Below are positions 3,456-64,000 of a DNA stretch of 64,000 nt, piece after piece; the first letter of the stretch is position 1, and every line of letters begins with the position of its first letter. Position numbers and translations under genes: made by a program. The stretch is taken from the NCBI GenBank assembly GCA_963665325.3, contig CAXXWS020000003.1, forward strand, positions 768,001 through 832,000. Reading direction: 5' to 3'. The notes below the pieces were generated by a model. That model did no database searches. It was not told the origin of the DNA and saw nothing but the letters and a program-made list of their open reading frames with translations. The stretch comes from Alphaproteobacteria bacterium (lineage in GTDB: Bacteria > Pseudomonadota > Alphaproteobacteria > Bin95).

Positions 3456-3563
3456 TCCACGGCATCAGTGACCATTGAACCATGGGCCGACTGGTAGGGG
3501 ACTTTGCCGAGGCCGGACCGCATGGCGATCCAGTTCCCCGGTCCAAGCCTTCCCGGGGCCCCG

Positions 3564-38382: not shown

Positions 38383-38501
38383 GCAGCACGCATGATACGT
38401 ATGGCCGGCTCGCCGCCCGCCGTTATTCCATCGCCGGTGCGCCGGGGGGTACCGCCGGCCCGCCGCCCGCCGATCCCATTCAGCGCACAAGGAGAGCCGC
38501 C

Positions 38502-38771: not shown

Positions 38772-38953
38772 GGCCGCCATCCCGCAAACGCCACTCCACG
38801 TGTCGGCGCTCGGGGAGCTGTTTTCCCTACAGCGCCCGCAAGTTCTTCCGGAGCAATGCGCTGCCGCGACAGGCAGCCCGATACGCCCATTCCGTCCCTG
38901 TGCAATGCCCACGGCGCACCCGGGGTTCACGCAGCAACCACCTCCCGGGAGCG

Positions 38954-42950: not shown

Positions 42951-43041
42951 CCGACCGCGGGCGCGGCGCCGCCATGCCGGGGAGCACGTGCCGCCGGCCC
43001 ACCGCCGGCGGATACCGTCACACCCGAGGGAACCATCCGCC

Positions 43042-43311
43042 ATGACCGTGCAGACCCTGCCCGACGAACCCAATTTCTGTGTGGTGCCGGCCTACGACGT
43101 CGAGGCCGACGTTCAGCAGATCCACTTCGTCATCGACGGCATGGCGGGCCATGTGCCCACGGCATTGGAGGCCCTGACGATGGACGATGCCCTGAACATC
43201 TGCGGCAAGCTGAACCGCAGCCTTGGCTATGAACGCGAGGCTTGGACCGCCATGGCGGCGGCCTCCATGCGCGCCGAGGACGACGATCCCGACAGCGACG
43301 CTTGGCATTGA
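43042..43311 (+). CDS. Small hypothetical protein, copy B
   Basis: Same length as copy A and highly similar (MTxQTLPDEPNFC.VPAYDVE.DVQQI...WH). Confidence 0.75.
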   Translation: MTVQTLPDEPNFCVVPAYDVEADVQQIHFVIDGMAGHVPTALEALTMDDALNICGKLNRSLGYEREAWTAMAAASMRAEDDDPDSDAWH

Positions 43312-43432
43312 GGGCCGTTCATTGCTCCGCAGCCGGCCCGCCGTCCGCCCGCGGCTTGTCGGCTGTCTACACAATTGCTATATCCAGAAGCCAAGGCAAC
43401 GCCCCCGCCAAACCCGGAAGAGGGAGACCGCC

Positions 43433-45422: not shown

Positions 45423-45671
45423 ATGTTTCTTTCCGCCCATTCTCTCGAACCCGGCAGCAGCGACCTGCTCGCCGAACTCGGCATCGACCCGCTGACCGTC
45501 CGCGAGGTCATCGACGACGACCGTGCGATGCGCTGTCCGGACCACGCTGCGGTGTTTCCCGCATACGGCTTCACGAGCCTCTCCCCGGAACCGCAGCTGG
45601 ACTACGGCCTGCACGAGCCGGCGCCGGCGGATCCCTGGGACCCGGCGTCGTCGCTGCCTCTGGCGGACTAG
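45423..45671 (+). CDS. Small hypothetical protein
   Basis: GAGGAG RBS; acidic 82-aa ORF. Confidence 0.45.
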   Translation: MFLSAHSLEPGSSDLLAELGIDPLTVREVIDDDRAMRCPDHAAVFPAYGFTSLSPEPQLDYGLHEPAPADPWDPASSLPLAD

Positions 45672-45780
45672 AGGTGGAGGAGGGCTTGGAGAGATTGAAC
45701 GGTCGGGGGTTCGGGGGAGTGAACCCGGCCCCGGTCGTTCGCAACCCATCGTCAACACTTGGACCCATGAGGAGATCGTC

Positions 45781-46239
45781 ATGGCCTTCGGATTGAACAA
45801 GGTGCAGATCATCGGCCGCCTCGGCGCCGACGTCACCGTCAACCACCTCACCTCGGGCGGCCGCGTCGCCAATCTGAGCATTGCGACCGACGAGTCGTAT
45901 ATCGATCGCAATTCCGGGAACAAAATCGACAAGACCGAGTGGCACCGGGTCGTCACCTTCCAGGACGGACTGATCGACATGCTGGTGAAGCATGCGAAGA
46001 AGAGCCGCCTGGTCTATGTCGACGGCAAGCTCCAGACCCGGCGCTGGTCGAAGCCCGGCGAGGACGGCGACCGCTTCTCGACCGAGATCCTGCTCGTGCC
46101 CGGCGGCCGGGTGCAATTCCTGGACAAGCCGAAGGACGACGCACCGGCGCAGGCCGCCGATCCCGCGATGTCGGGCGACGGCGGCGGCATGCCGGCCGGC
46201 GGCGCGCCCGCGGACCTGGACGACGACATCCCGTTCTAA
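45781..46239 (+). CDS. ssb: Single-stranded DNA-binding protein
   Basis: LNKVQIIGRLGAD, TEWHRVV, GKLQTRRW, C-terminal DDDIPF. Confidence 0.95.
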   Translation: MAFGLNKVQIIGRLGADVTVNHLTSGGRVANLSIATDESYIDRNSGNKIDKTEWHRVVTFQDGLIDMLVKHAKKSRLVYVDGKLQTRRWSKPGEDGDRFSTEILLVPGGRVQFLDKPKDDAPAQAADPAMSGDGGGMPAGGAPADLDDDIPF

Positions 46240-46260
46240 GCGGCCCATTGCCGAAACTGT

Positions 46261-46300
46261 AAAGCCCGTGGGGTCAACACCCTGCGGGCTTTCGTTTCTT
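46261..46300 (+). terminator. Intrinsic terminator after ssb
   Basis: AAAGCCCGTGGGG-TCAACA-CCCTGCGGGCTTT followed by a T-rich tail. Confidence 0.7.
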
Positions 46301-46548
46301 ACACTCTCCCACTCCGTAACGTTTCCCCTCCCGACATCGTTCCGGCGGGCCCCTCCCTCCCGCCGACCCTGGCCGGTTCCGCGTTCCTCCCGCGCGGGAC
46401 CGGCCATTTTTTATGCAGCCGGTCCAGAGCCGTCCCCGGCCGGACGGCACGGCTCGCGCTTCGCGCATCGCCCGCCGTCCCGGCGCCGGCCGGAGGCGGA
46501 GGCCGGCCGGTATCGGGCGTCCCGCATGGAATGGAAGGAAGGCCCCGC

Positions 46549-47640
46549 ATGCAGCACGAACCGTCTCCCGCCGCCGCCATCGCCGCGGCGCTCGCCGCGC
46601 GCGCCGAGGACGTCTGCCGGCGCTATCTCCCCAACGGACGCAGGCTGGGCCGCTACTGGATCTGCGGCGACCTCGACGGCGCCCGCGGCCGCTCGCTCTT
46701 CGTCCGCCTCTCCGGGTCCGGCAAGTCCGGTGGCTGGACGGACGCAGCAACGGGGCAGCACGGCGACCTGCTCGACCTCATCCGCTACCGCACCAACGCG
46801 CCGACGCTGCGCGCCGCGCTCGACGAGGCGCGGGCGTTCCTCGCCCTGCCGCCTGTGGCGACACCTGCTTCGGACGAGCCGTATGACGCGACCGAGGCGG
46901 CGCGGCGCCTGTGGCGGCGCTGCCGCGCCGTCGCCGGCAGCCATGCCGAGCGCTATCTCCAGGCGCGGGGTCTGTCGCGCTGCCGCTTTGCGGCGCTACG
47001 CTTCCATCCCGAGCTTCGCTACCGCGAAGGCTCCACCGTGCGCCGCTTCCCGGCGCTGGTCGCCGCCGTCACCGCCAGCGACGGCGCGATTACCGGCGTG
47101 CAGCGGACCTGGCTCGATCCGCGCCGGCCCGCCAAGGCGGGCGTCGCGACCCCGCGCAAGGCGCTCGGCCGCATTCACGGCCTCGCGGTGCGCTTCGGCG
47201 CGCCTTCCGGCCTCGCTCCACTCGTCGTCGGCGAGGGCATCGAGACCGTCCTGTCGCTGATCACCGCCGTGCCGGAGATCCGCGCGGCCGCCGCGCTATC
47301 GGCCGGCAGCCTCGGCGCGTTCGCGCCGCCGCCCGGTGTCGCCCGCCTGGTCATCGCCCGCGACAACGACGAGGACGGCGCGCTCGCCGCCGAACGTCTC
47401 GCCCGGCGCTGCGCGCGGGCCGGCGTCGCCGCCACGATCGTCGTCCCCGTCGGCAACGACTTCAACGACGACCTGGTCGACCTCGGCGCACTGGCTCTGC
47501 GCGCCCGGTTGGCGCCGCTGTTCCGCTGCGGGGCCTGCCCCGGATCCCGGATCGCGTCCTGGACAGGCTCCCGATCCGGGGGAGGAGGAGAAGAGCGGAA
47601 GGTCGGGCGAGCCGACCCGAGGAGAGGAGAGAGTCGATGA
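46549..47640 (+). CDS. Toprim-domain primase-like protein
   Basis: GDLLDLI, YLQARG, GVQRTWL, VGEGIETVLS, IARDND, DFNDDL. Confidence 0.85.
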   Translation: MQHEPSPAAAIAAALAARAEDVCRRYLPNGRRLGRYWICGDLDGARGRSLFVRLSGSGKSGGWTDAATGQHGDLLDLIRYRTNAPTLRAALDEARAFLALPPVATPASDEPYDATEAARRLWRRCRAVAGSHAERYLQARGLSRCRFAALRFHPELRYREGSTVRRFPALVAAVTASDGAITGVQRTWLDPRRPAKAGVATPRKALGRIHGLAVRFGAPSGLAPLVVGEGIETVLSLITAVPEIRAAAALSAGSLGAFAPPPGVARLVIARDNDEDGALAAERLARRCARAGVAATIVVPVGNDFNDDLVDLGALALRARLAPLFRCGACPGSRIASWTGSRSGGGGEERKVGRADPRRGESR

Positions 47641-47978
47641 GCGCCGTCATCAATCTCAGGCACGAGCCGAAGCTGCGCGAGGAATTCGAATATGCGCATG
47701 TCGTAAACAACACCGTGCTGATCGACCGCCGCACGAAGTGGGGAAACCCGTTTCGAGTCGGTCGCGGCCAAACTGCCGGGCAGGCGGTCGCGCGCTACCG
47801 CGTCCATCTCTGGGAGCGCATCCGCGCGGGCGAGATTCCCCTGGAGGAGCTTGCCGAACTGGAATCCTGCTGGTTGGCATGTTGGTGCTCGGGGGATGGG
47901 CATCCCTGCCACGGCGAGGTGCTCGAACGCGCGGCAACCTGGGCAGCGCGGGTGCTGGCTGAGCGGGCCGATGCGTGA
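47637..47978 (+). CDS. DUF4326 protein
   Basis: IDRRTKWGNPF...LACWC...CHGEVL. Confidence 0.85.
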   Translation: MSAVINLRHEPKLREEFEYAHVVNNTVLIDRRTKWGNPFRVGRGQTAGQAVARYRVHLWERIRAGEIPLEELAELESCWLACWCSGDGHPCHGEVLERAATWAARVLAERADA

Positions 47979-48362
47979 CGCGCCTCCGTGCCTCCTCCCG
48001 AACGCCGTGCCGGGCCGAACCGCCGATGGGGTCGGTGCAGGGGGAGAGAATTGGCTGCCTGCTGTGCTGGTTCATTGTGCCACACGTGCTCCCTCCGCCA
48101 ACCCCTGCGGGGTCCTCCGCTGCGCTCCGGCGCGGGGAGGTTCCGCTAGGCGCCGCGCCGGGGCGACCGTGGCTCAGGCCCAAGCTCCGCCAAGGCTCGT
48201 TCCTCGCCAGGCTCCACTAGGGCCTTGCGCCCGCACCACTCGCCCCGGCGCGGCGCCAAGCTCCACCAACCCCGCGTGGCTGCGGTCCGCGCGCGTGACC
48301 CAAAAAACCATCACATCGGGGCACACGCTCCGAACCGTGCAACCCAGGATCGGGAGATCGTC

Positions 48363-49286
48363 ATGACCATCATCGAGAACATCGAAACCGCCGAGCAGTC
48401 CGTCACCGCGACCGTCTGCGAGAACGCCGCCCTCTACGGCGCTGCCCCCGAGCGCGACGAGTTCGACACCCGGGACGTCTGGGACGCCGACGACGCGACC
48501 GACGCGGTGCTCGAGTCCTTCCGCATCCTCTGCGAAGGCGTCGGGCCGGACGGGTTCCAGCTCGCCGACGAGCGCGAGAGCCTGCTCTGGGGCTTCGTCA
48601 ACATGTTCGACGCCCAGACCCAGCGCCTCGACCGCGCCGCCGACAAGCTGATGCCCGACCTCCGCGACCTCCAGCGCGAGCAGGACGGCACCGAGATCAA
48701 GTCGCGCGAGCTGGAGCTGACGACCGACCGGGCGCAGAACCTCACCGCCCGGCGCGATGCGTTCGAGCGGATGCGCGACGAAGCCGCCGAGGCATACCGC
48801 AGCGAGACCGGCGGCATGTGGCGGCCCCGGCGCGGATCGCATGCGAGCCAGACCGGCAAGCTGACCTCCGCCGCCATCGACGCCCGCGACTACCAGCGCG
48901 CGAGGAAGGACCGCAAGACCATGGCGCACCTGCCGCAGGGCACCCTCGTCGCCATCGCCGGCGGAAAGGACATCGCCAACCCGGCGGCGGTGATCGAGCG
49001 CCTGGAGAAAGCCCGCGAGAAATACGCAGACATGGTGCTCGTGCATGGCGGCGGACCCGGCGTCGAGAAGATCGCGGCAAGCTGGGCCGAGCGCAACGGC
49101 GTCCACCAGATCGTCTGCAAGCCGGACTGGGACCGCCACGGACGCGCCGCACCGTTCCGCCGCAACGACGAGCTGCTGAACCTCCTGCCGAAGGGCGTCA
49201 TCGCGTTCCCCGGCTCCGGCATCACCGAGAACCTCGTCGACAAGGCCCGGCAGCTCGGTATCCCGGTCCAGCGCATCGCAGCCTGA
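48363..49286 (+). CDS. DUF2493 (YspA/SLOG-like) domain protein
   Basis: LLWGFVNMF; C-terminal VAIAGG, LVHGG.PGVE.IA..WA, AAPFRRND, IAFPGSGIT.NL. Confidence 0.82.
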   Translation: MTIIENIETAEQSVTATVCENAALYGAAPERDEFDTRDVWDADDATDAVLESFRILCEGVGPDGFQLADERESLLWGFVNMFDAQTQRLDRAADKLMPDLRDLQREQDGTEIKSRELELTTDRAQNLTARRDAFERMRDEAAEAYRSETGGMWRPRRGSHASQTGKLTSAAIDARDYQRARKDRKTMAHLPQGTLVAIAGGKDIANPAAVIERLEKAREKYADMVLVHGGGPGVEKIAASWAERNGVHQIVCKPDWDRHGRAAPFRRNDELLNLLPKGVIAFPGSGITENLVDKARQLGIPVQRIAA

Positions 49287-50183
49287 CCGCAACATCTCGC
49301 GGGCCGCGTCGTCTTCCGGGCGGCGCGGCCCGTTTCGTTTCCGACAAACGGTGTTGCGGCGGCACCGTCGTCCTCGCGCGCGCTTCGCGCCGCGCTCGCG
49401 ACCGCCGCGCCACTCGATTGCAGATGCACTTCACCGCGCATCGGTGCCGTCGGCACTGCCGGCGCTCGTGACCGGTGCTCCGGTCACTCGCCGCTGCACC
49501 ATGCTGCACATGAGTGCATCGCCTGCTGCGCCGATCCTGGCGCACCGCCGCTCGCATCGCTCGCGGCATTCGTGCAGGCGCGCCCGCGGAGCCCGCCGTC
49601 ACTGCGCTCGACACTTCGTCCCTTCGCAGTGTCCGCATCGTCCGCCGCTCAATCGCCGCTGCGGCTCCGATCCGCCGGGTCCTCCGGCGTCGATCTTCCC
49701 GATCTCCCGTACAGCATGAATCGTCTGTCTGACCCGCCGGGCGGGCCTTGGGTTTCACACCTGACGCAGTTCCTCTGCGGTCATGGCGGAGGCTGCGAAT
49801 GACTGCGATGGGCTGCGCAGGCCTGCGATTCTGCGCAGCGCTGTCATGCCGGGAAAAGTCCGCCGCTACAGCGCGCCTGGCCTTGCGGTCAGGCCGCGCA
49901 GTGAGAGCGGCGAGAATTCAGGGGCTTGACTGGCCCCCGCTGCAACGCTCCGTTCGCACCGCCGTCAGAGCGCATATCCTCTGTCCGATAGAGGGCGGTT
50001 CAGCGGCGTGCGCTGGCGTGCGCACCGCCATGACGAGGGCACTTCCGCGGCGCTCGGCTTGACATTGCTTTGCGCCGGGTGGAAGCGTTCGTCTCATGCC
50101 AGGATGTCCAGCATTGGCTTGAATTGCCGAGAAGATCGGGACGGTGACCGTGGTCGCGATCGAGCAGGAAAAGGGACAGGAAG

Positions 50184-50519
50184 ATGGAAAAACCGGCTGA
50201 GCAGCTGCTGGAGAAGCGCATCCGCGTATCGGCCAGCCAATGGGATCGCCTGCATGTGGCGGCCCAGACGACCAGCCTCACCGCGAATCAGCTCTTGGTC
50301 GAGCTTGCGATCGAGGCTCTCGACCGGCGGGAATGGCCGCACACCGAGGCTGAGATCCGCATGTACCGTGCCAACCTGTTCACCGCGCAGGTGCTCGCGC
50401 GGGAACTGATCGATACCGGGCGCGAGGAAAAACTCGCGGAAATCCGCCGCCATGTCTCGCAGCTGGCTCCCGAATTGCGGACAAAGACATTCGATTCTAC
50501 GCCGTCCGACGCCCGGTAG
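50184..50519 (+). CDS. Small RHH-like DNA-binding protein
   Basis: KRIRVS..QWDRL..AA.......NQLLVELA beta-alpha-alpha pattern; AGGA RBS. Confidence 0.55.
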   Translation: MEKPAEQLLEKRIRVSASQWDRLHVAAQTTSLTANQLLVELAIEALDRREWPHTEAEIRMYRANLFTAQVLARELIDTGREEKLAEIRRHVSQLAPELRTKTFDSTPSDAR

Positions 50520-50628
50520 CCCACGCGGCAGTGGCCCACATGCCCCGGATGCTACGTACGTACGCGGGCTGCCGGCCCGTCGGGCCTGACAATGCTTCAA
50601 TGAGGCCGGCGCGTGCCCACCAGGTGGC
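50517..50628 (-). CRISPR. Degenerate one-spacer mini-array (crRNA-like element) upstream of cas3
   Basis: 50594-50609 equals the first 16 nt of the repeat exactly; 50542-50552 (GCCCCGGATGC) equals the repeat end; 41-nt spacer between them. Confidence 0.75.
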
Positions 50629-50784
50629 GATCGCGTTTCTGATCGTACACAGCGTCATCGCTCCTCTCCCGGCCTTCGCAAGTTCCGGGCTATGCTCAAC
50701 CAAATCTTGATCGCGCCGGACAATGAGGGAGTGAAAAGCGACCGGACCATTCACCGGGCAACATGATCTCCAGCGGAGGATAGC

Positions 50785-53320
50785 TTGGACGGAACAGCGA
50801 TCTATCGAATTGCTCTCGGCGACAACAAACAGCCAGACCCTTGGCAGCATGACCTCATGAAGGGCGAGTGGCCGCAAGTACTGATCGCGCCCACCGGCTC
50901 GGGCAAGACAGCGGCTGTCACTCTCGGCTGGGCCGCGCATCGACTGCGATCGCCCGGTACGACGCCGCTCCGCCTGGTGTGGTGCTTGCCGATGCGTACC
51001 CTGGTGGAGCAGACTGCGGGCGACATCAGAGGTTGGTTTGGCAAGCTGACCGAGGAGACGGATAGTCCAAAGGCGTTGCCCGGCCCAGAGGATGTGCATG
51101 TCCTTATGGGTGGCGTCGAGGCTGGCGACTGGCTTGCAAAACCCGAACAACCTGCGGTGCTCGTAGGCACTCAGGACATGCTCCTCAGCCGCGCGCTCAT
51201 GCGGGGCTACGCCACCTCGCGGGCCAAATGGCCGATGGAATTCGCACTGCTTCATGACGACGCACAATGGGTCTTCGATGAGGTCCAGCTCATGGGGGCG
51301 GGCCGCCCGACATCGGCCCAACTCGAAGCATTTCGCCGATGCGAGGCTGTGCGAGCCGCAAGGGCGCATCGCTCCTACGGTCGTCCTGCCCGAAGTCTCT
51401 GGATCTCGGCTACCCTCGATCCGGCTTGGCTCGAGACCGTGGATCATGCCGAACCACCGCCGGAAGCCGTGGTGCAGGTCGATCCGGGAGCGGCGATCGA
51501 CGGCCGGCTGGCGCGCCTCGCCAAGGCGAGCAAGACACTTCGCCGATCCGACGTCGCGCCAGCGTCCCCAAAGTCCGGTGACGTCGATCATTATATCGCG
51601 GAGATCGCGGAATCCATCCTGGCTGCTCACCGTCCCGGGCATATGACCCTCGCGATCCTTAACCGGGTGGCGAGAGCGCAAGCCCTATATGCGGCGATCA
51701 AACGATTGCTCCGACACCAGGAACCACCGCCACCGACACTGGCTCTCGTCCATTCGCGCTTCCGCTTGGCTGAGCGCGAACAGGAGATGGGTAAGGTTGC
51801 CAGAGGCGAGTCGAATGACGTCATCGTCGTCGCCACGCAAGCCATCGAAGCCGGACTCGACATCTCCGCCGCCGTTATGTTCACCGAGCTGGCGCCCTGG
51901 TCCTCCATGGTGCAGCGCTTCGGTCGCGCGAACCGGCACGCGGAGCTCGATGGCGGGGCAGAGATTCACTGGATCGGCGTGCTCGACGAAGCGAACGACG
52001 AGAAGGCCAAGCGCGTCTTGGCGCTTCCCTACGCGGCCGAGGAGCTTCATTCGGCGCGGGAACGACTCGCGTCGTTGGTCGACGCGGCTCCTGCAAATCT
52101 TCCACCGCCGAATGACATCGATCCCCCGCGTCGTGTCATCCGTAGGAAGGATCTTGACGATCTTTTCGATACGGACCCAGACCTGACCGGCTTCGATGTC
52201 GACGTCTCCCCCTACGTCCGCGATGTGGACGACACCGATATCCGCGTTTTCTGGCGCGATCTGCGCGATCGGTCCGGCACCGACCAGGTGCCGCCCCCGC
52301 CCCATGCGGGCGAGCTGTGCGCCGCTCCGATCGGCTGGGCTAAGGACTGGCTGAGGACGGTGCGAAGGAAAAGTTCCGACGATCTCGTCTTCGTACGTGA
52401 TCCGCAATGGCGGAGCGCGGAGAGTTCGGCTGGTGCAGCGCCGCCCGGCTGGCGGCCCTTTCGGGATGACCCGTGGCCGGGGATGACCCTGCTCGTCGAT
52501 ACCACGGCCGGCGGATACGATGAATCCATCGGATTCACAGGCGATCCCAAACACGTTCCGGCGCCGATCGCCGGCTCGACGGATTCTACGACCGCATCGG
52601 CTCCGTCACCGGCTACGGACGAGGAAGGTCACGACGAAGATCCGCGAAGCGCAATCGGAGTACCGGTGCTGCTCACCGATCACCTTGAGCATGTCGCCGC
52701 GGAGGCCAAGGCCCTCTGCTGCGCACTCGCCGTCGACCCCGAGACCCGCAGAGCCATCGTTCGGGCGGCGAGCTGGCACGACTTGGGCAAGGCGCACGCG
52801 GTCTTCCAGGACACCATGCAGCGAGGGCTCCTCGCACCCGATGCAATTAGAGGTGGGCTCCTCGCCAAGACGGTCGGGACTAACCTACGTCATGGTCGTG
52901 CCTTCTTCCGGCACGAGCTCGCCTCCGCCCTCGCATTCCTTGACCACGAACGCTGGTCGCGCGATGCCGATCTGGTGACCTATCTAATCGCCGCCCATCA
53001 TGGGATGGTCCGGATGAACCTTCGGGCACTGCCGCGCGAGCGCGCGCCAACGGGGGAGCGGGCAGGCGCACACTTCGCCCGCGGGGTATGGGAGGGCGAC
53101 GAGCTGCCGAGCGTCGATCTGGGCGCTGGCGAACGCTGGGCAGGCGGAACCCTTACCCTGTCGGTCATGGAGCTCGGCTGGGACGAGGCGACGCGCGAGA
53201 GCTGGGCCGAGCGCACGCGGGAACTGCTGGTGCGCTTCGGCCCCTTCCGGCTCGCCTGGATGGAGACCATCGTCCGCCTTGCCGACTGGCGGGCATCGGC
53301 TAAGGAACGGGAGGGAGGTT

Positions 53321-53334
<14 letters not shown>
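50785..53334 (+). CDS. cas3: Type I-G Cas3 (N-terminal helicase, C-terminal HD nuclease)
   Basis: APTGSGKT, LPMRTLVEQ, GTQDMLLSRAL, FDEVQLM, QRFGRANR, then HDLGK, FRHELAS, AAHHG, LADWRAS; TTG start after GGAGGA. Confidence 0.93.
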
Positions 53335-56762
<3,428 letters not shown>

Positions 56763-56766
56763 AGGA

Positions 56767-58368
56767 ATGTTTGCCCTCACGTTCCGTTTTCCAGCCGGTC
56801 GCTACCACGCGACGCCGTGGGGCCGCAACGTCAACGAGGCGGATATCGCGTGGCCGCCAGAGCCTTGGCGGCTGTTGCGAACGCTCATCGCCGCTTGGTG
56901 GCGCAAGGGCGATCACGAGCGCTGGTCGAAGAGCGATCTTGCCGCCCTCATCGACACGCTGGCCGAGACCCCGCCCGACTACCACCTACCCGAAGGGGCG
57001 ATCCACGCCCACACACGCCACTACATGCCCCAAGGAAAGTTAGACAAGGGGAGAGAGAGAACGGCGCTCGTCTTTGACGGGTTCGTTCACCTGCCGAGAG
57101 GGGCGGAAATCGTGGCGGTGTGGCCCGACCTGGCTCTGAACGGGGATCTGTTCGAGTTGGCGGCCGATCTCGCCGAATCAGTCGGCTATCTCGGCCGCGC
57201 AGAGAGTTGGACCGAATGTCGGGCCGTGGACCACTGGAACGGCAACGCAAACTGTCGAGTCGTGGGAACCGAGGGCGCCGGAACTTCGATCCGTGTGATC
57301 GCGCCGCGCTCGCCCGCGGCGTATGCGGCCGAACGACAGCGCCTGATCGCGAATGCCAAGCAGGAAACAGCCGGCGCGGCGTTTCGGAGCAAAGCGACCG
57401 GTGCAGACACCCTGCCGGCGCGGCTCGTCGATGCGCTGGCGCTCGATACCGCAGACTATCAGGATCGGGGATGGAGTCGTCCGCCGGCGGCGCGCGAAGT
57501 CGTCTACATGTGCGCCGCAGACGCGAGCCCCGGGGTTATTCCCCGCGTGTTCGTCGGACGTCGCCACGCCATCCGGAGCGAGGATCGGCCGACTGTCGCC
57601 CGGTATCTGGTGGCCGGACGGCCCCTTCCCCGCATTGAAGATGCTGTGAAGCTCGGAGAGCTCATGCGCCGCGCCGCGCTCGCCCAGTTCGGCTGGAGGA
57701 AGGACGAGGTGATCGGCCGCTCGATTCCCAACGCGCCGTGGCAGATCTCGGGACGGGGCGTCGATGGTCGGCCTCTTGCGGATCCATCACATCCCCATGC
57801 TTTCTGGCTGCCGGAGGACGCGGATTCGGATGGCTGGATTGACCATATCTCGGTCTACATCGAGAGTGGCATCGACGATGAAGCCCGCGTCCGGCTCGAC
57901 CGGATCACCCGTCTCTGGCTCGCACCGAGGCAGCGCCCGAGCCACGATGAGCCCGATCCCGCGACTGTGAAGGAATGGCGGCTCGCGCTGGAGGGATTCG
58001 GCCGTCCAGCCGACTTCGCCGGGAGCGCGCGCATCTTCGGAATCGCGACCAAGTGGCGAAGCATGACCCCGTTTCTGGCCGCTGGGCACCTCAAGGCATC
58101 CGGCTACCCGGGCGAGGTTCTCCGCCTGCTCAGACGCCGCGGCCTGGATGCGGACGGAGTGGAGGTCGAGGAGCTGAAGAGCATCGCCGTCGGCGGAACC
58201 GAGCGCCGTGCCCTCCATTTCCACCGATTCCGTTCCCGGGGCGGCGAGAAGCAGCCCGACACGGCCGGCGCCCTCCTGCGCATCGTCTTTCCGCAACCGA
58301 TCACCGGGCCGCTTGCCATCGGATTCGGCAGCCATTTTGGCCTTGGGCTCTTCACGCCCGACGATTGA
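56767..58368 (+). CDS. csb2: Type I-G Cas5/Cas6 fusion (Csb2)
   Basis: GRYHATPWG, WPPEPWRLLR.LIA, YLGRAESW, C-terminal G-loop GPLAIGFGSHFGLGLF. Confidence 0.9.
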   Translation: MFALTFRFPAGRYHATPWGRNVNEADIAWPPEPWRLLRTLIAAWWRKGDHERWSKSDLAALIDTLAETPPDYHLPEGAIHAHTRHYMPQGKLDKGRERTALVFDGFVHLPRGAEIVAVWPDLALNGDLFELAADLAESVGYLGRAESWTECRAVDHWNGNANCRVVGTEGAGTSIRVIAPRSPAAYAAERQRLIANAKQETAGAAFRSKATGADTLPARLVDALALDTADYQDRGWSRPPAAREVVYMCAADASPGVIPRVFVGRRHAIRSEDRPTVARYLVAGRPLPRIEDAVKLGELMRRAALAQFGWRKDEVIGRSIPNAPWQISGRGVDGRPLADPSHPHAFWLPEDADSDGWIDHISVYIESGIDDEARVRLDRITRLWLAPRQRPSHDEPDPATVKEWRLALEGFGRPADFAGSARIFGIATKWRSMTPFLAAGHLKASGYPGEVLRLLRRRGLDADGVEVEELKSIAVGGTERRALHFHRFRSRGGEKQPDTAGALLRIVFPQPITGPLAIGFGSHFGLGLFTPDD

Positions 58369-58440: not shown

Positions 58441-59417
58441 GCTTCAATGAGGCCGGGGCCGGTCCGCCGACAGGTCCGCCGGCGTGCCGTCGCTTCAATG
58501 AGGCCGGGGCGCGCGCGCCCCGGATGCTTGCATCCGCTTCTCGAACGGCCGGGAGAGGAAATAGCTTCAATGAGGCCGGGGCGCGCGCGCCCCGGATGCC
58601 CTGAAGCAGCACGGCATCGTCATCATCGAGCCCGAAACCGAGCTTCAATGAGGCCGGGGCGCGCGCGCCCCGGATGCCGCCGTCATCAGGCCGCGTGCGA
58701 GGCGGCGACAAGGGCGCTTCAATGAGGCCGGGGCGCGCGCGCCCCGGATGCCCCGGAACTCGCGGCGGCGGTGGACGTGCCGACGCTGATGCTTCAATGA
58801 GGCCGGGGCGCGCGCGCCCCGGATGCCGGCCCGTCGACGTGGAAATGGTCGCCCGCGCGCAGCTGCTTCAATGAGGCCGGGGCGCGCGCGCCCCGGATGC
58901 CCATCGACGTCCCATCGGGACCAAGCCTCCACTGCGTGCTTCAATGAGGCCGGGGCGCGCGCGCCCCGGATGCCCTGGAACTCGGCGACGCCATCGGCGT
59001 CCGTCTTGCCGTGCTTCAATGAGGCCGGGGCGCGCGCGCCCCGGATGCCCCGGCTGGAAATAACCAGCGTCGGGCGGCATGAAGTCGCTTCAATGAGGCC
59101 GGGGCGCGCGCGCCCCGGATGCCGCGTCGCCCTGGGCGTCGACCGTCAGGAACTCGAGCTTGCTTCAATGAGGCCGGGGCGCGCGCGCCCCGGATGCCTG
59201 CGCTTCCGAACGCCTGGGCCGATCCGCAAGGCACGCTTCAATGAGGCCGGGGCGCGCGCGCCCCGGATGCCGCCGGACGCCACGGAAGGGCCGCTAAACT
59301 GCGGAGGGCTTCAATGAGGCCGGGGCGCGCGCGCCCCGGATGCCAGGTCGCATATGAAATCACCAAGCGCCGCAGACCGGGCTTCAATGAGGCCGGGGCG
59401 CGCGCGCCCCGGATGCC
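58441..59417 (-). CRISPR. Type I-G CRISPR array: 13 intact repeats plus a truncated distal repeat
   Basis: Repeat GCTTCAATGAGGCCGGGGCGCGCGCGCCCCGGATGC(C) at 58492, 58564, 58642, 58716, 58791, 58865, 58938, 59013, 59087, 59162, 59235, 59308 and 59381; spacers about 35-42 nt; the minus strand ends in ATTGAAGC; decay at the left end. Confidence 0.98.
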
Positions 59418-59682
59418 AGGCACCATACAACTTGTTGGTAGCCAAGACAAAATCCAGTCGATTTCGAGCGGTTCGGGAATTTCCTTGCAGCAGGCATCCT
59501 TTTGGCCCCTCGCGTGTCCTGGCGAGCGCCCCAAATCTCCCAGCTATCAACATGTTGCACAGATTCGAGCGATTCCCGGTATTTCTGCGTTGCTTCGCCA
59601 CTCGAACCGACTCGGCGGACCTCGCAACGGCTGATTTCAGTGTCAGGCATCGGATTCGCAATCCCTTGAAGCGAGCACATCA
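59418..59682 (-). promoter_or_regulatory. CRISPR leader
   Basis: AT-richer non-coding region between cas2 and the first repeat, opposite the degenerate end. Confidence 0.7.
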
Positions 59683-59976
59683 TCATACAACAACCGCTTG
59701 ACGCTCGATCGCTGAAAATGTCTTGCCGATGCTCATGACGGCGATATCGGTCTTATCTGCCGGCCCTATGTCGATCACCAGAACGTGGTCCTCGCCCGCC
59801 TTGATAAGTTCGCGCAGCTTCGTTTCCAGTTCAGCGCGACGACGACGCGACAGGCGGCACTGGAACACCGATAGCTGGAGCCATTCCCCAAAGCCGTGCA
59901 TGGTCTTGAAAACGCGCCGCCAGCGTCGCGTATCTGAGATGTCGTATGTGACGATGTAGGTGCGCTCATCGCTCAT
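59683..59976 (-). CDS. cas2: Cas2
   Basis: YIVTYDISD.RRWRRV...GEWLQLSVFQC. Confidence 0.93.
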   Translation of the reverse strand: MSDERTYIVTYDISDTRRWRRVFKTMHGFGEWLQLSVFQCRLSRRRRAELETKLRELIKAGEDHVLVIDIGPADKTDIAVMSIGKTFSAIERQAVVV

Positions 59977-59988
59977 GGTGACCACCTG

Positions 59989-61725
59989 TCATCGGGGAAG
60001 GTAGTGCGGATAATCGGGCAGTTCGCCCAGCAGATGGCGGCACAGCAGGCGCGCCTGGAGCAGCAGAAGCCGCCGCATGCTGAGCCGGTAGCCGAACAGC
60101 GGGTGGGTGGTTTCCTGAGAGAGCCGGCGCTCGAACGCGCCGACGAAACGGCGGCGCCCTGCTTGTGTCAGGGACGTGCCGGTGGGAGCGCTGACAAAGT
60201 CCCCCGGCGAGACCTCGCCGGTGTTGACCGCCGACAGGACCACCGAGTCCGCGATGATCGGCCGAAACGGCTCCATCACGTCGAGGGCGAGCGCGGGCTT
60301 TCCGTATCGCGGCGCATGGAAGAAGCCCCGATAGGGATCGAGACCAACCGTTGCTAGCGCGACGGTCAGATGGCGCGTCAGCATGGCGTATGCGAGCGAC
60401 AGCATGGCATTTACGGGATCGGTCGGAGGACGCCGGTTGCGGGCGTCGAAACGGAACGGCGCCAAGCTATCCCCAGCTTCCGCCGATTCCTTGGTGCCCG
60501 GTGGCGTCAGTAGATCGGAAAATGCACGGAAGTACGTTGCTGCCGCGTCCCCTTCCAGTCCGAGCAACGCGCTCACCGCAGTCGCGCGCTTCGTCGACCT
60601 CCGGGCGGCGTTGAGCCGGTCCAGCACGACCTTGCGCTGCTCGCGGTCGCCGCGCCAGTTGCGGCGCACAATGGTCCGCTGGTTCACGATCTTCGCGGCG
60701 ACCAGATCGCGGGCGAAGGCCAGGCAATAGGCAGGGTCGAAGCTGCGCTGGTACTGCGCCGTTCGGACTTCCACATTGCGGTGGCCAACTCCGTGGGCGA
60801 TGCCCCGAAACCAGCCGCCATGGCTGTGGAAGGCGACCGGGATTTCGCGGTCCATGAGTGCGGCAAGCGCGGGCGTGGTGATCGAGACGTTACCGAACAG
60901 CGCCACGTCGGACACATCGTTCAACCGGACGGTGGTATCGCCCTGCTCCTCGTCGGCGACCTTCAGTGTTTCGCCTTCTTTCGAGACCCGCGCCCTCTGC
61001 GACTGGACAACCAGCGGCAGGGCCTCGTCCGCCCCGATGGCGATGGGGCGGGGCGCCAGATCGGAGCCCCCGAGCGCGCGCATCTCGTCCGGAAGGCAAA
61101 TGGACACTAGCGCACAGCGTGGGCATTTCGGGCTGTCCCGTAAGGGTGGCGGAATGCGGCCGTGGGCGACCGTCAGACGCAGCCGGCTCACCGCCTCCCG
61201 TGCGGCGAGGCGGAGTTCATCGTCCAGGACAATCCGGACTCGCTCGCGGCTCTCGGCATACCAGATGGCGCCTTCCTCAACCCTGTAGCCGTGCTCTTCG
61301 AGCAGCAGCGCCTGAAGGCAAACCTGGACACGCTCCGGCTCGTAGGCGCCCTTCTCGACATGGGGCCGCTTTCCGCGCTTATAGTCGACCGGCGTAACCG
61401 CGCCGTTCTCGGCCTCGGCAATGTCGATTTTCGCGATAACACCGAGCTTCTCGGACGAGAGCGTCAGAGAGCGGCTGACAACCTTGGTATCGTCGCTCTC
61501 CAGAGCTTCGGGATCGGGCAACGGTTTGTTGGGTCGGTCGACTCGAGTATGCACCCGCCGCCCGTCCACCGTGTCGCCGGTCTCCGCCCATTCGGCCTGA
61601 CCCCACATGAGATAGGCGAGGCGCGGGCAATAGACGAACTCGTTCACCATCCTTGCCGGCACCAGCGGATGCTCGCCGGTCGCCGACGGCGCGGGAAGAT
61701 GGAGTTCAAGTTGCTTGGTTGTCAT
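59989..61725 (-). CDS. cas1: Cas4-Cas1 fusion
   Basis: Cas4: YCPR, KIDIAE, VDYKRGK, CPRCALVSIC; Cas1: LLGLEGDAAATYF, RRPPTDPVNAMLS..Y, LALDVMEPFR. Confidence 0.94.
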   Translation of the reverse strand: MTTKQLELHLPAPSATGEHPLVPARMVNEFVYCPRLAYLMWGQAEWAETGDTVDGRRVHTRVDRPNKPLPDPEALESDDTKVVSRSLTLSSEKLGVIAKIDIAEAENGAVTPVDYKRGKRPHVEKGAYEPERVQVCLQALLLEEHGYRVEEGAIWYAESRERVRIVLDDELRLAAREAVSRLRLTVAHGRIPPPLRDSPKCPRCALVSICLPDEMRALGGSDLAPRPIAIGADEALPLVVQSQRARVSKEGETLKVADEEQGDTTVRLNDVSDVALFGNVSITTPALAALMDREIPVAFHSHGGWFRGIAHGVGHRNVEVRTAQYQRSFDPAYCLAFARDLVAAKIVNQRTIVRRNWRGDREQRKVVLDRLNAARRSTKRATAVSALLGLEGDAAATYFRAFSDLLTPPGTKESAEAGDSLAPFRFDARNRRPPTDPVNAMLSLAYAMLTRHLTVALATVGLDPYRGFFHAPRYGKPALALDVMEPFRPIIADSVVLSAVNTGEVSPGDFVSAPTGTSLTQAGRRRFVGAFERRLSQETTHPLFGYRLSMRRLLLLQARLLCRHLLGELPDYPHYLPR

Positions 61726-61920: not shown

Positions 61921-64000
61921 TCATAGGCTGAGATCGCGCTCGATGTGCTTCCGGGCGCCGGCCTCCCCGATTTCTGGCTCTCGCGTGCGATCCCGCTCTG
62001 GCGATATCGAAGCTCCGCTTTCCCGAACACTGTTGAGGCCCGCTTCCCGCCCCTTCGCCTGCTCCGGCCCGACCGCCTCCAGCGCCGCGATCCTCTCGCC
62101 GGTTGCCGTTTCGAGCTGCTCGCGCAGCGCCGCCCTGTCGTCGGTGACCAGTTCCGCCCGGTCGCGGGCCCGGCTGATCTCGACATAGAGCATCCGCTGC
62201 GTCGTCAGGTTGGGATGTTTCGCTTCCATTGCCGCGATTACCGTATCGACGGTGCGGCCCTGGAACGAATGCACGGTCGAGGCCCAGGCGCGGTCGACAT
62301 GGCGGAGCTGCGGATCGCCGGGAGCGAGATCGAGAGACCGCCCGTCCTCGAGCCGGAACGTGACCTTGCCGTCCCTCACCGCGGCGACCTCGGCGGCGCC
62401 GCTGTTCACCAGTCCCAGACCGGCATCATTGCGGGTCCAGCGGACGCGGTCGCCGGCGCGCAGTTCCATCTCCATGACCCTGTAGACCTCGACCCCGCCG
62501 CTCCGTGCCGCAATCCGCTCCGGCTCCCAGGCGACTGACCGGCCGTCCGCGCCGGCCAGTTCGACCGTGTGCGCCTTGTGATCGACGCCGGCGACCCGCA
62601 GCTCGTCGCCCTTCTCGACGCCGAGGCGCTTGTAGGGGCGGTGGAAGGCGACGACGTCGCCCGGCGCGTAGTTCGCCGCCAGCGCCTTCTCCGCATTCGT
62701 GTATCCCTGCGAGACCAGCCGCTCGGCGGTGACGGCGGGGCCGTGGACGACGCCGTCGCGCACCAGGCGCTCGCGGACGATGGCGTTGATGTCCTCGCGG
62801 ATGGCGTGGCTCGGCGCCATCAGCCCGGCACTGGCGCGCTCCTCCGGCGACAGCCGGAGCCAGCGCGCGGCGGCGGCGCCGGCGAGGTTGTCGGGCTTCA
62901 CCTCGGCGACGTTCGGCCCGAGCTTCCCGAAGGCGCGTCCGATGTCGCCGGCGAGGCTGGCCTCGACGGCGGCCTTCAGGTCGGGATCGCGCTGGCGGCG
63001 GATCTCGTCCATCAGGGCGGTCTCCATGCCGGCGGCCTGCAACTGGGCGAAGGGTTTCCCGGCGTCGACCGCGCCGAGCTGCTTCTCGTCGCCGACCAGC
63101 ACCACGCGGGGGATGCGCAGCGCATCGGCGATCCTGAGCAGGTCCCGGGCCTGGACGGTGGAGGCCAGCGAGCCCTCGTCGACCACCAGCGCGGTCCTGG
63201 CGAACGCGGCGCGCATCTCCTTCCCGCCCTTCCTCGTCAGCCGCCCTTCGGCGACGCCGGCATTGCGGGCGAGGAAGCGCTGCAGGGTCTCGGATTCGAT
63301 CCCGGCCTCGTCGCCGAGCGTCCGCGCCGCCGAGGCCGACGGCGCAAGCCCCCGGACCTGCCAGCCGCGCTTCTCGAGCAGCGCGCGGGCGCGGTTCAGC
63401 ATGGTGGTCTTGCCTGTGCCGGCATAGCCCTGTACCCCGACCGTGCGGTCGTCCGAGGCGAGGATCAGCTTCACCGCCGCCTTCTGCCCGGCCGTGAGCG
63501 GCCCGTTGCGGAGCGCCTTGTCGACCGCGCGGGCGCGCATCGGTGCCGCGATCCGTCCCCGGCCGGCGCGCATGAGCGCGACGGTCTCGGTCTCGTCGGC
63601 GACCGCCCGGTCGGTGGTCAGGCGGTCTTCGGCGCCCGGTAGCCGCGCCGCGAGCAGCGTCCCGGCCTTCTCCAGCGCGGCGACCTCGCGTTCGGCCTCG
63701 GCGATGGTCACCGCGCCGGTGCGCCAGGAGAGCGCCGCGGCGAGCAGATCGGTGCGGGCGAACACCGCCTCGCGCTCGGCCAGATGCGCCACCGCCCAGG
63801 CCATCGCCTCGGCGGCCGGGTCGGGGTGCTCCGCCGGCGTTTCCGGGGAGGCGATCTTACCCTCTACGGCCGCCGGTCCGGTTTCCGCCTCCACCGCAGG
63901 AGCCGCTTCGCGCACCGCATCCGTCCGCCCGGCCTCCTTCGCCGCCTGGGCGACCAACCCGCAGGCATCGAAGCCGAGATCGGCGGCCTGTTTCTCCCAG
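61921..64000 (-). CDS. Conjugative relaxase-helicase, MOBF/TrwC-like, C-terminal part (5' end outside window)
   Basis: LTAGQKAA, VQGYAGTGKTT, LAPSASAA, VVDEGS, GDEKQLGAVDAGKPF, RWTRND, STVHSFQG, YVEISRAR; relaxase domain itself not in window. Confidence 0.85.
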   Translation of the reverse strand, partial: WEKQAADLGFDACGLVAQAAKEAGRTDAVREAAPAVEAETGPAAVEGKIASPETPAEHPDPAAEAMAWAVAHLAEREAVFARTDLLAAALSWRTGAVTIAEAEREVAALEKAGTLLAARLPGAEDRLTTDRAVADETETVALMRAGRGRIAAPMRARAVDKALRNGPLTAGQKAAVKLILASDDRTVGVQGYAGTGKTTMLNRARALLEKRGWQVRGLAPSASAARTLGDEAGIESETLQRFLARNAGVAEGRLTRKGGKEMRAAFARTALVVDEGSLASTVQARDLLRIADALRIPRVVLVGDEKQLGAVDAGKPFAQLQAAGMETALMDEIRRQRDPDLKAAVEASLAGDIGRAFGKLGPNVAEVKPDNLAGAAAARWLRLSPEERASAGLMAPSHAIREDINAIVRERLVRDGVVHGPAVTAERLVSQGYTNAEKALAANYAPGDVVAFHRPYKRLGVEKGDELRVAGVDHKAHTVELAGADGRSVAWEPERIAARSGGVEVYRVMEMELRAGDRVRWTRNDAGLGLVNSGAAEVAAVRDGKVTFRLEDGRSLDLAPGDPQLRHVDRAWASTVHSFQGRTVDTVIAAMEAKHPNLTTQRMLYVEISRARDRAELVTDDRAALREQLETATGERIAALEAVGPEQAKGREAGLNSVRESGASISPERDRTREPEIGEAGARKHIERDLSL

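What the first reader, a model, noticed from the sequence alone, without database searches (positions are those of the whole stretch)
50517..50730. Mini-CRISPR upstream of type I-G cas3 whose spacer seed matches the cas3 upstream region: candidate Cas-autoregulatory RNA
Seen: about 8 kb from the main array, a degenerate repeat (50517-50552, 23/36 identical, last 11 nt exact) and a half-intact repeat (50594-50609, 16/16) flank a 41-nt spacer. The orientation is the same as the main array, so the ATTGAAGC 5' handle is intact. The handle-proximal end reads ATTGTCAGGCCCGA. The minus strand at 50724-50711 reads ATTGTCCGGCGCGA (12/14; mismatches at positions 7 and 11; no match beyond). That site is about 60 bp before the cas3 start, just downstream of a TATGCT -10-like hexamer (50691), and is preceded by CTC. 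Known: short seed-only pairing by crRNA-like RNAs (CreA/CreR type) lets Cascade repress promoters without cleavage, and reported I-G PAMs are TTN-like. Inference: this RNA guides I-G Cascade to repress the cas3-csx17-csb1-csb2 operon. Caveats: CTC is a non-canonical PAM and the mismatches are not at the tolerated every-sixth positions.
Basis: partly seen in the sequence, partly recalled or inferred. Interest (0 to 1): 0.85.

Follow-up and report, generated by a model that had tools for sequence, protein, structure and literature searches.

The report
Degenerate mini-CRISPR upstream of I-G cas3
A worn-down single-spacer CRISPR unit sits just upstream of the cas3 operon of a type I-G system and may encode a small guide RNA that lets the system turn down its own genes, a kind of control already known in other CRISPR types, but this is not proven here.

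Summary
A minus-strand mini-array lies 155 nt upstream of cas3: psiR1 50594-50630, psiS 50554-50593, psiR2 50517-50553. It has the same orientation and period (77 nt) as the main array. The repeat's 12-nt tail occurs 15 times in the 5.58 Mb genome, 14 in the array and once here.

Only the parts flanking the spacer are exact (16 nt giving the 5' handle, 11 nt of the next repeat). The outer halves match 21 of 46. This is the CreA/CreR anatomy.

The spacer's first 14 nt match 50724-50711 at 12/14, 61 nt before the cas3 start. Chance probability for that 154-nt interval is about 0.001-0.03, depending on the statistic.

Evidence against:
- The PAM position reads CTC, not TTN.
- The mismatches (positions 7 and 11) fall on positions expected to pair.
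- None of 9 related loci (51-77% Cas3 identity) has such an element.
- Homology with the nearest locus starts only 9 nt before cas3.
- Near-identical strains give no covariation.
- No RNA data were available.

My odds: CreR-type autorepressor of cas3-cas8g-cas7-csb2 about 0.4; functionless array relic about 0.35; crRNA-like RNA with another role about 0.13.

If real, it is a new member of a known kind. Interest is moderate.

The parts
50594..50630 (-). psiR1, the degenerate upstream repeat. Its last 16 nt (CCGGCCTCATTGAAGC, 50609-50594) are exact, including the 4-nt linker and the 8-nt 5' handle ATTGAAGC.
   Evidence: 25/37 identical to the repeat consensus. It is the only copy of the 12-nt repeat tail outside the array in the genome. 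A small 6-bp hairpin ends at the same position as the real repeat's stem, but the fold is not better than shuffles (z -0.6).
50554..50593 (-). psiS, a 40-nt spacer-like sequence: ATTGTCAGGCCCGACGGGCCGGCAGCCCGCGTACGTACGT.
   Evidence: Its length lies within the array's spacer range of 35-41 nt.
50517..50553 (-). psiR2, the degenerate downstream repeat. Positions 2-12 (GCATCCGGGGC) are exact and the 3' arm of the hairpin is lost. It overlaps the stop codon of the upstream ORF.
   Evidence: 23/37 identical. Its first base, A, is the same variant as in the array's last full repeat (58465-58528).
50711..50724 (-). Candidate target. It matches psiS positions 1-14 at 12/14, with mismatches at 7 and 11. 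The crRNA-like RNA would pair with the + strand, which is the cas3 coding strand.
50725..50727 (-). PAM position of the candidate target. It reads CTC on the minus strand, which is not TTN.
   Evidence: The PAM expectation comes from PMC6547450 and one TTT protospacer.
50691..50696 (+). It is unverified.
   Evidence: Present. No sigma-70-like promoter passed the scan. The best lenient candidates score 7/12, and one of them puts a -10-like GACAAT (50719-50724) inside the target.
50785..53334 (+). cas3 (helicase plus C-terminal HD domain), the first gene of the interference operon. It has a TTG start and a GGAGGA Shine-Dalgarno sequence at 50775-50780.
   Evidence: Pfam Cas3-like_C_2, DEAD and Cas3_HD. 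The TTG start is conserved in G008.
53279..55816 (+). cas8g/csx17
   Evidence: TIGR04113, E 5e-158
55752..56762 (+). cas7/csb1 (GSU0053 family)
   Evidence: PF09617, E 3.5e-44
56767..58368 (+). csb2 (Cas5-Cas6 fusion), the expected processing nuclease
   Evidence: TIGR02165, E 2.3e-53
58441..59417 (-). Main CRISPR array: 13 full repeats plus a truncated distal repeat tail. It is transcribed on the minus strand.
59418..59682 (-). Leader. It is conserved with G008, G012, L004 and L006.
59683..61725 (-). cas2 (59683-59985) and the cas4/cas1 fusion (59989-61725)
   Evidence: Pfam Cas2, Cas1 and Cas4
50184..50519 (+). Upstream 111-aa ORF, possibly ribbon-helix-helix. Its stop codon lies inside psiR2.
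   Evidence: Only a sub-threshold Pfam RHH_10 hit (E 0.068, 13.9 bits against a cutoff of 27). No NCBIfam hit.

Best explanation
The element is a CreR-type gene for a crRNA-like RNA belonging to the adjacent type I-G system.

Inferred mechanism:
1. It is transcribed on the minus strand, away from cas3.
2. Csb2 cuts psiR1 four nucleotides after a weak residual hairpin. This leaves the canonical 8-nt handle AUUGAAGC on a 40-nt spacer.
3. The RNA is loaded into I-G Cascade, which in this subtype holds Cas3 stably.
4. The complex binds the + strand at 50711-50724, 61 nt upstream of the cas3 start. It pairs through only about 12 of the first 14 spacer positions.
5. That is too little pairing to license cleavage, but it obstructs RNA polymerase. 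When Cascade is abundant, the cas3-cas8g-cas7-csb2 operon is damped.

Shown here: the anatomy, the orientation, the uniqueness of the element, the selective conservation of the handle-forming parts, and the statistical rarity of the match.

Inferred only: transcription, processing, loading, binding at a non-TTN site, and repression.
For: (1) The repeat's 12-nt tail has a single copy outside the array in 5.58 Mb, and it lies 155-190 nt from the cas3 start.

(2) Conservation is sharply non-uniform. The 16 nt and 11 nt flanking psiS are all identical. The outer halves match at 21 of 46, against a genome background mean of 14.1; 2.6% of 200,000 random draws reach 21. This is the pattern described for CreA/CreR: psiR1 keeps the 5' handle and psiR2 keeps the start of the 3' handle (passages of 10.1101/2023.03.10.532045).

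(3) The period (77 nt) and spacer length (40 nt) fit the array.

(4) The seed-anchored 12/14 match lies in the only interval where a CreR target is expected:
- 0.0013 expected from the genome-wide rate;
- 8 of 3000, 2 of 204 and 66 of 4999 in three controls;
- about 0.03 from the window-wide density under the flexible score.

(5) The RNA would pair with the non-template strand of cas3.

(6) The cas genes are intact and the 13 array repeats are near-identical, so effector proteins are presumably made.

(7) Published precedent:
- Mini-arrays with partial matches to effector promoters occur in about 15% of type I loci (passages of 10.1101/2023.03.03.530964).
- creA-like elements were noted for I-U, the old name of I-G, in a supplementary figure that I could not see.

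(8) A second locus of the same genus (G016) also has a mini-array in the intergenic region next to its cas3.
Against: (1) The PAM position is CTC.
- TTN licenses I-U interference in Geobacter; TTA, TTT, TTC and TTG worked, and only AGC and a non-target were tested besides (PMC6547450).
- The one clean protospacer of this repeat family has TTT (window spacer 7 on the G016 chromosome, 33/36).
- In published mini-arrays, every manually examined target had the cognate PAM.

(2) That protospacer's mismatches are at 12, 18 and 24. Every sixth base is therefore the unpaired one, and mismatches 7 and 11 of the candidate hit pairing positions. The longest uninterrupted run is 6 nt.

(3) None of 9 loci with 51-77% Cas3 identity has a repeat-like element upstream of cas3. 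These are G008, L004-L009, G245 and G110. Nor do 5 more distant loci.

(4) Homology with the nearest locus (G008) begins at 50776, only 9 nt before cas3. The whole promoter and mini-array segment is therefore lineage-specific.

(5) No promoter was predicted on either strand.

(6) Neither the psiR1 nor the psiR2 fold is better than shuffles.

(7) With one 8-nt gap, the similarity extends into the repeat tail: CCTCATTG plus 8 of the next 10 positions, 16/18 in all. This could mean common descent rather than selection for pairing (my reading).

(8) The mini-array of G016 has no significant local target (best 9/11).
Confidence: 0.4

Rival explanations
1. The element is a functionless relic. It is a fragment of a former array unit (3' part of one repeat, a spacer, and the 5' part of the next repeat) left beside cas3 by rearrangement of a mobile, horizontally transferred locus. 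The 12/14 match is coincidence or residual common descent.
For: - The element is absent from all 9 related loci, and from 5 more distant ones.
- The flank upstream of 50776 is unrelated to the nearest locus.
- The locus sits among mobile-element genes: SSB, DUF4326, YspA-SLOG and a TraA/TraI-like helicase.
- Arrays of this family do get broken. The G012 array is split by a ~9.5 kb insertion, and the window's own array ends in a truncated repeat.
- Both breakpoints of exact identity fall in the palindromic centre of the repeat. That is a plausible place for illegitimate recombination (my inference).
- psiR2 shares the A variant of the array's distal repeat.
- The PAM is non-cognate and the seed is interrupted.
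- No promoter was predicted.
Against: - Uniform decay cannot give 27 of 27 identical positions next to 21 of 46. A relic must therefore be a recent, doubly truncated piece.
- Even so, its outer halves keep slightly more repeat similarity than background (2.6% of random draws reach it).
- The match to the cas3 5' region would have to be a 0.1-3% coincidence.
Confidence: 0.35
2. The element encodes a functional crRNA-like RNA, but cas3 repression at 50711-50724 is not its job. Three variants are possible:
- a CreA-type antitoxin guarding an adjacent unrecognised toxin;
- a guide for another genomic or leader target;
- an RNA that simply competes for Cas proteins.
For: - The handle conservation is the same as in the main reading.
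- A minus-strand ORF with a Shine-Dalgarno-like GGGAGAGGAG starts at 50657, between the candidate target and psiR1, and reads through the mini-array (53 aa).
- A 9/10 match with a TTC PAM lies in the leader region at 59639-59648.
- Short matches make other targets impossible to exclude, as the published survey also says.
Against: - The ORF is part of a long spurious-looking frame in GC-rich DNA, and no family evidence was sought or found for it.
- The matched part of the leader site lies in sequence partly shared with G008 (GATGCCTGAC), a locus without a mini-array upstream of cas3. It is probably chance.
- Of the 17 non-self genome sites matching at least 11 of the first 12 spacer positions, none has a TTN PAM. 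The same holds for the 6 non-self sites with an exact 10-nt seed.
Confidence: 0.13
3. The region acts on the + strand as the 3' end or terminator of the upstream ORF (50184-50519), or as an operator for that possible ribbon-helix-helix protein. The repeat similarity would then be incidental.
For: - The ORF's stop codon lies inside psiR2.
- GC-rich hairpins are present (GGCCCGTCGGGCC at 50575-50587; my reading).
- There is a weak RHH_10 hit.
Against: - No terminator-like site was found (0 found).
- This reading does not explain the two exact repeat pieces at array spacing, or their uniqueness in the genome.
Confidence: 0.04

Closest known systems
CreR (Cas-regulating crRNA-like RNAs; shown experimentally for I-B, I-E and V-A; Liu et al., bioRxiv 10.1101/2023.03.10.532045, passages read)
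   Same: - A degenerate mini-CRISPR (psiR1-psiS-psiR2) lies next to the effector genes.
- psiR1 keeps the 5' handle and psiR2 keeps the start of the next repeat.
- The spacer matches only at its PAM-proximal end, to a site in the 5' region of the first effector gene.
- The expected outcome is Cascade binding without cleavage.
   Different: - The subtype is I-G. For this subtype, that paper mentions only manually found 'creA-like elements' for I-U, in a supplementary figure I could not see.
- The PAM position is CTC rather than the cognate motif.
- The match is interrupted: runs of 6, 3 and 3, against 15 consecutive nt in the Salmonella example.
- The regulated operon would start with cas3 itself.
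- It is not conserved in related loci.
Regulatory mini-arrays of type I systems (Shmakov et al., bioRxiv 10.1101/2023.03.03.530964, passages read)
   Same: - A standalone repeat-like sequence of at least 16 nt lies in a long intergenic region beside cas3.
- It forms a two-repeat mini-array.
- There is a partial match of 10 nt or more to a cas promoter region.
   Different: - Their pipeline required conservation among closely related loci, and the cognate PAM was found in every manually examined case. Neither holds here.
- The terms 'I-G' and 'I-U' do not occur in the text held.
CreTA (Cascade-repressed toxin with a CreA antitoxin RNA; I-B, I-F)
   Same: The anatomy is the same: a degenerate mini-array whose spacer partly matches a nearby promoter.
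   Different: No toxin gene is recognisable beside it. The candidate target lies in front of cas3.
tracr-L autorepression of cas9 (type II-A), as cited
   Same: The logic is the same: an 11-bp partial match lets the effector repress its own promoter.
   Different: The effector class and the RNA architecture are different.

Membership tests
CreR-type Cas-autoregulatory crRNA-like RNA | A degenerate mini-CRISPR (two repeat-like elements around one spacer) inside or beside the cas locus, outside the main array | tested here: met
   psiR1 25/37 and psiR2 23/37, with a 77-nt period. It lies 155 nt from cas3 and is the only repeat tail outside the array in the genome.
CreR-type Cas-autoregulatory crRNA-like RNA | psiR1 conserves the nucleotides that become the 5' handle; psiR2 conserves those at the start of the 3' handle | tested here: met
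   The last 16 nt of psiR1 are exact, including ATTGAAGC. Positions 2-12 of psiR2 are exact. The outer halves match at 21/46.
CreR-type Cas-autoregulatory crRNA-like RNA | A PAM-proximal partial match of the spacer (about 10 nt or more) to a site at or next to the promoter of the effector cas genes | tested here: inconclusive
   12/14 with mismatches at positions 7 and 11, located 61 nt upstream of the cas3 start. p is about 0.001-0.03. The promoter itself was not located.
CreR-type Cas-autoregulatory crRNA-like RNA | The target is flanked by the system's cognate PAM | tested here: not met
   The site has CTC. TTN is expected from PMC6547450 and from one TTT protospacer of this repeat family. 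Two other protospacer-like hits, each with mismatches at pairing positions, had CTC and TAC, so the PAM of this system is not firmly set.
CreR-type Cas-autoregulatory crRNA-like RNA | Evolutionary conservation, or spacer-target covariation, in related loci | tested here: not met
   0 of 9 loci with 51-77% Cas3 identity have the element. Strains X3-X6 are near-identical where covered.
CreR-type Cas-autoregulatory crRNA-like RNA | The RNA is expressed, processed by the Cas6-like nuclease, and represses the cas promoter in a Cascade-dependent way | not testable with these tools
   No RNA run was listed for this stretch.
CreTA toxin-antitoxin module | An adjacent toxin gene (creT) whose promoter carries the CreA target | tested here: inconclusive
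   Only unsupported small ORFs are present: a 53-aa minus-strand frame from 50657 and a 6-codon + strand ORF at 50763. No toxin was identified.
Type I-G (formerly I-U) CRISPR-Cas | cas3, cas8g/csx17, cas7/csb1, csb2 (Cas5-Cas6 fusion), a cas4/cas1 fusion and cas2 | tested here: met
   Pfam and NCBIfam hits.

The most novel reading that the evidence does not exclude
This would be the first analysable CreR-type autorepressor of a type I-G system. It would work through a non-TTN (CTC) flank and an interrupted seed. In I-G, Cas3 is a stable Cascade subunit that was needed for efficient R-loop formation, so such a weak, non-cognate site might be what allows binding without self-cleavage of the operon, which begins with cas3 itself. 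A sister locus in the same genus (G016) carries an independently diverged mini-array at the equivalent place. That would suggest repeated recruitment of such RNAs on mobile I-G loci.
Probability: 0.3. Interest if true: 0.6.

Novelty: new member of a known kind. Interest (0 to 1): 0.4.

Why it matters
If it is functional, Cas autoregulation by crRNA-like RNAs would extend to type I-G. This is the least studied type I subtype, and one in which Cas3 is part of the surveillance complex. It would also provide a natural test of how little pairing, and how poor a PAM, still allows I-G Cascade to bind without cutting. That question matters for using I-G systems as programmable repressors. If it is a relic, it is a useful caution: a mini-array with a statistically unusual seed match is not enough to call a CreR.

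Tried and rejected
- RNA evidence: no RNA holder was listed for window 50300-51300.
- Strain variation. Contigs of four runs (X3-X6) were laid on 50000-51200.
  - The mini-array is identical where covered.
  - X6 has one listed change, at 50623.
  - The target is covered without change in X3 and X5, and is not covered in X4 and X6.
  - There is therefore no covariation information.
- Related loci:
  - Genome contigs gave 6 loci.
  - The family search gave G008 only, 1 of 36 other genomes.
  - The class sample gave 7 of 400 other genomes.
  - Metagenome contigs gave one 45%-identical fragment.
  - The plasmid collection gave one 41% hit.
  - None has a mini-array upstream of cas3.
  - L005 had one 16-mer with 4 mismatches and L065 one 12-mer with 2 mismatches about 970 nt upstream. 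Both are at chance level.
- PAM from protospacers:
  - The window array against phages gave no match.
  - Against plasmids it gave only related arrays and two weak hits. One of these is 27/38; the other fell below my filter.
  - Four array searches in 37 family genomes yielded three full-length hits, with flanks TTT, CTC and TAC.
- Viral mimic: an exact 18-mer (handle plus seed) gave 5 hits in IMG/VR. All are in low-GC coding-like contexts without repeat features, so they are chance.
- A further decayed repeat between the target and psiR1 (AGCAT at 50696, GGAGC at 50664): I counted about 12/37 by eye, which is background level. Rejected.
- The leader site at 59639 (TTC PAM, 9/10): its matched core lies in sequence partly shared with the G008 leader, a locus that has no mini-array upstream of cas3. 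Rejected.
- Promoter and terminator scans found nothing.
- Folds of psiR1 and psiR2 are no better than shuffles.
- Supplementary figures and tables could not be seen and may bear on how I-G examples look. These are Fig S7 of 10.1101/2023.03.10.532045, which shows the I-U example, and Tables S5/S6 of 10.1101/2023.03.03.530964.
Full report
**What is there**

The window carries a complete type I-G CRISPR-Cas locus.
- On the + strand lie cas3 (50785-53334), cas8g/csx17 (53279-55816), cas7/csb1 (55752-56762) and csb2 (56767-58368).
- A 13-repeat array follows at 58441-59417. Rfam reads it on the minus strand.
- Its leader (59418-59682), cas2 and the cas4/cas1 fusion are also on the minus strand.
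- In crRNA sense the repeat is GGCATCCGGGGCGCGCGCGCCCCGGCCTCATTGAAGC.
- In another I-G system, Csb2 was reported to cut 4 nt after the hairpin and leave an 8-nt handle (passages of 10.1101/2022.08.08.503147). Applied to this repeat, the stem is followed by CCTC and then the handle ATTGAAGC.

- On the minus strand, psiR1 (50630-50594) keeps the last 16 nt of the repeat exactly.
- A 40-nt spacer-like psiS follows (50593-50554).
- psiR2 (50553-50517) keeps repeat positions 2-12 exactly.
- The handle-to-handle period is 77 nt, within the array's 72-78 nt.
- The 12-nt repeat tail occurs 15 times in the 5.58 Mb genome: 14 in the array and once here.
- A local alignment of the repeat to the 800 nt upstream of cas3 scores 36, above all 100 shuffles (maximum 30).
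- psiS begins ATTGTCAGGCCCGA. The minus strand at 50724-50711 reads ATTGTCCGGCGCGA, preceded by CTC and 61 nt before the TTG start of cas3. TATGCT lies at 50691-50696.

**How unusual is the match?**

That gives 0.0013 expected in the 308 positions between psiR1 and cas3.
- I also used a statistic that allows for free choice of length: the best anchored match of any length from 8 to 40, on either strand. The observed value is reached by 8 of 3000 shuffled spacers, 2 of 204 real spacers from nine related arrays, and 66 of 4999 random genome segments.
- The density of equally good sites across the window is 12 in 128,000, which gives about 0.03.
- The match is unlikely to be chance, but not by a wide margin.

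**Anatomy that speaks for a crRNA-like gene**

- Conservation is sharply uneven. All 27 positions next to psiS are identical to the repeat. The outer halves match at 21 of 46. The genome background mean is 14.1, and 2.6% of 200,000 random draws reach 21.
- Uniform decay cannot produce this pattern. It is the pattern reported for CreA/CreR.
- The replaced 5' part of psiR1 can still pair with the conserved 3' arm. This gives a 6-bp hairpin that ends where the real stem ends. However, neither this fold nor that of psiR2 beats shuffles.
- The RNA would pair with the + strand, which is the non-template strand of cas3.

**What speaks against the proposed mechanism**

- *PAM.* TTN licenses I-U/I-G interference in Geobacter (PMC6547450). 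Bifidobacterium I-G uses TAN (PMC9335239).
- *PAM of this repeat family.* I found three full-length protospacer-like hits:
  - Window spacer 7 on the G016 chromosome, 33/36, flank TTT, mismatches exactly at 12, 18 and 24.
  - A G008 self-match, 32/35, flank CTC, mismatches at 7, 13 and 17.
  - A G012 spacer on this genome, 32/36, flank TAC, mismatches at 5, 12, 30 and 36.
- The first hit is the only clean one. It supports both TTN and the usual rule that every sixth base is unpaired. The candidate site therefore has a non-cognate flank, and both of its mismatches (7 and 11) fall on pairing positions. That leaves runs of 6, 3 and 3.
- *Published cases.* In published mini-arrays, every manually examined target had the cognate PAM.
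- *Promoter.* No promoter could be predicted on either strand.
- *Possible common descent.* With one 8-nt gap the similarity extends into the repeat tail: CCTCATTG followed by 8 of 10. This could point to common descent rather than selection for pairing.

**Comparison with relatives**

- Cas3 relatives at 69-77% identity occur in the same genus (G008) and in six metagenome-assembled genomes of other phyla. Two more occur in the class sample, at 66% and 51%.
- None of these 9 loci has a repeat-like element within 800-1500 nt upstream of cas3. Nor do 5 more distant loci.
- Similarity to G008 begins at 50776, 9 nt before the start codon. The promoter and mini-array segment is therefore specific to this lineage.
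- A Cereibacter plasmid with the same repeat family has a divergent WYL-domain gene there instead.
- G016 is in the same genus. Its adaptation module is 80% identical, but its cas3 is only 29% identical. It does carry a mini-array in its cas3/cas4-cas1 intergenic region: an 11/12 repeat tail, and 77 nt later a full degenerate repeat with an intact hairpin. Its best local target is 9/11, which is not significant.
- Strains that hold the window's sequence are near-identical, so covariation cannot be judged.
- No RNA run was listed.

**Context**

The locus lies among genes typical of conjugative elements: SSB, DUF4326, a YspA-SLOG protein and a TraA/TraI-like helicase. This fits the scattered taxonomic distribution of its relatives. 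It also makes rearrangement relics plausible. G012's array is split by a ~9.5 kb insertion and no effector genes were found near it. The window's own array ends in a truncated repeat.

**Verdict**

I weigh three points for function:
- the element's unique placement;
- the handle-specific conservation;
- a 0.1-3% match.

Against these stand three points:
- the wrong flank;
- the interrupted seed;
- the lack of conservation.

My odds are:
- about 0.40 for a CreR-type autorepressor acting at 50711-50724;
- about 0.35 for a functionless, doubly truncated array fragment;
- about 0.13 for a crRNA-like RNA with another role;
- a few per cent for a + strand role tied to the upstream ORF.

**Comparison with what is known**

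- Autoregulation by degenerate mini-CRISPRs has been shown experimentally for I-B, I-E and V-A, and for a I-F1 mini-array (abstract listings; passages).
- Elements of this kind were already noted for I-U, in a supplementary figure I could not see.
- The terms 'I-G' and 'I-U' do not occur in the held text of the systematic survey.
- My paper searches returned no experimental I-G case. I did not read beyond the passages cited.
- At best this is a new member of a known kind, with an atypical target.

Noticed in passing
L054 (G016:C1:5345000-5364900), 7663-7776: A second locus of the same genus has its own mini-array between divergent cas3 and cas4/cas1. The repeat tail CCTTATTGAAGC ends at 7699. 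A degenerate full repeat at 7740-7776 keeps a hairpin (-20.8 kcal/mol) and has the handle ATTGGGAC. The handle starts are 77 nt apart. The best local target is only 9/11 (TTA flank, 7657 minus).
   Followed up: partly
L053 (G012:C1:4329000-4348900), 2897-4724 and 14241-14321: This locus has cas4/cas1 (90% identity), cas2 (96%) and an array. tblastn found no effector genes within 19.9 kb. The array's last unit lies about 9.5 kb further on, apparently split off by an insertion.
   Followed up: partly
window 58902-58937 (spacer 7), matched to L057 (G016:C1:2505381-2505618): This spacer matches the chromosome of another species of the genus at 33/36. The mismatches fall exactly at positions 12, 18 and 24, and the flank is TTT. 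It is a textbook tolerated-mismatch pattern and the best PAM evidence for this repeat family.
   Followed up: partly
L048 (G008:C3:5101186-5104222), 1502-1536: A G008 spacer matches G008's own chromosome at 32/35. The flank is CTC and the mismatches are at 7, 13 and 17. It is a self-target that evidently is tolerated. I did not examine its gene context.
   Followed up: no
window 45523-49286 and 61921-63957: The CRISPR locus is flanked by genes typical of conjugative elements: SSB, DUF4326, a YspA-SLOG protein and a TraA/TraI-like AAA_30/UvrD helicase. Cas3 relatives at 69-76% identity occur in Gammaproteobacteria, Rhodothermales and Vicinamibacteria genomes. Both points indicate horizontal transfer.
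   Followed up: partly
window 58441-58491: The distal end of the main array is a truncated unit. It has only the 19-nt 3' part of a repeat, preceded by 32 nt. The last full repeat has the variant first base A, which psiR2 also has.
   Followed up: no
window 38497-38773 and 43037-43313: A 277-nt direct repeat at 78% identity, 4.5 kb apart, lies upstream of the CRISPR region. It probably reflects duplicated genes.
   Followed up: no
L013 (Cereibacter sphaeroides plasmid CP031754.1), 2176-5757: A plasmid-borne I-U/I-G locus of the same repeat family has a divergent WYL-domain gene and an XRE-family regulator gene upstream of cas3, in place of a mini-array.
   Followed up: no
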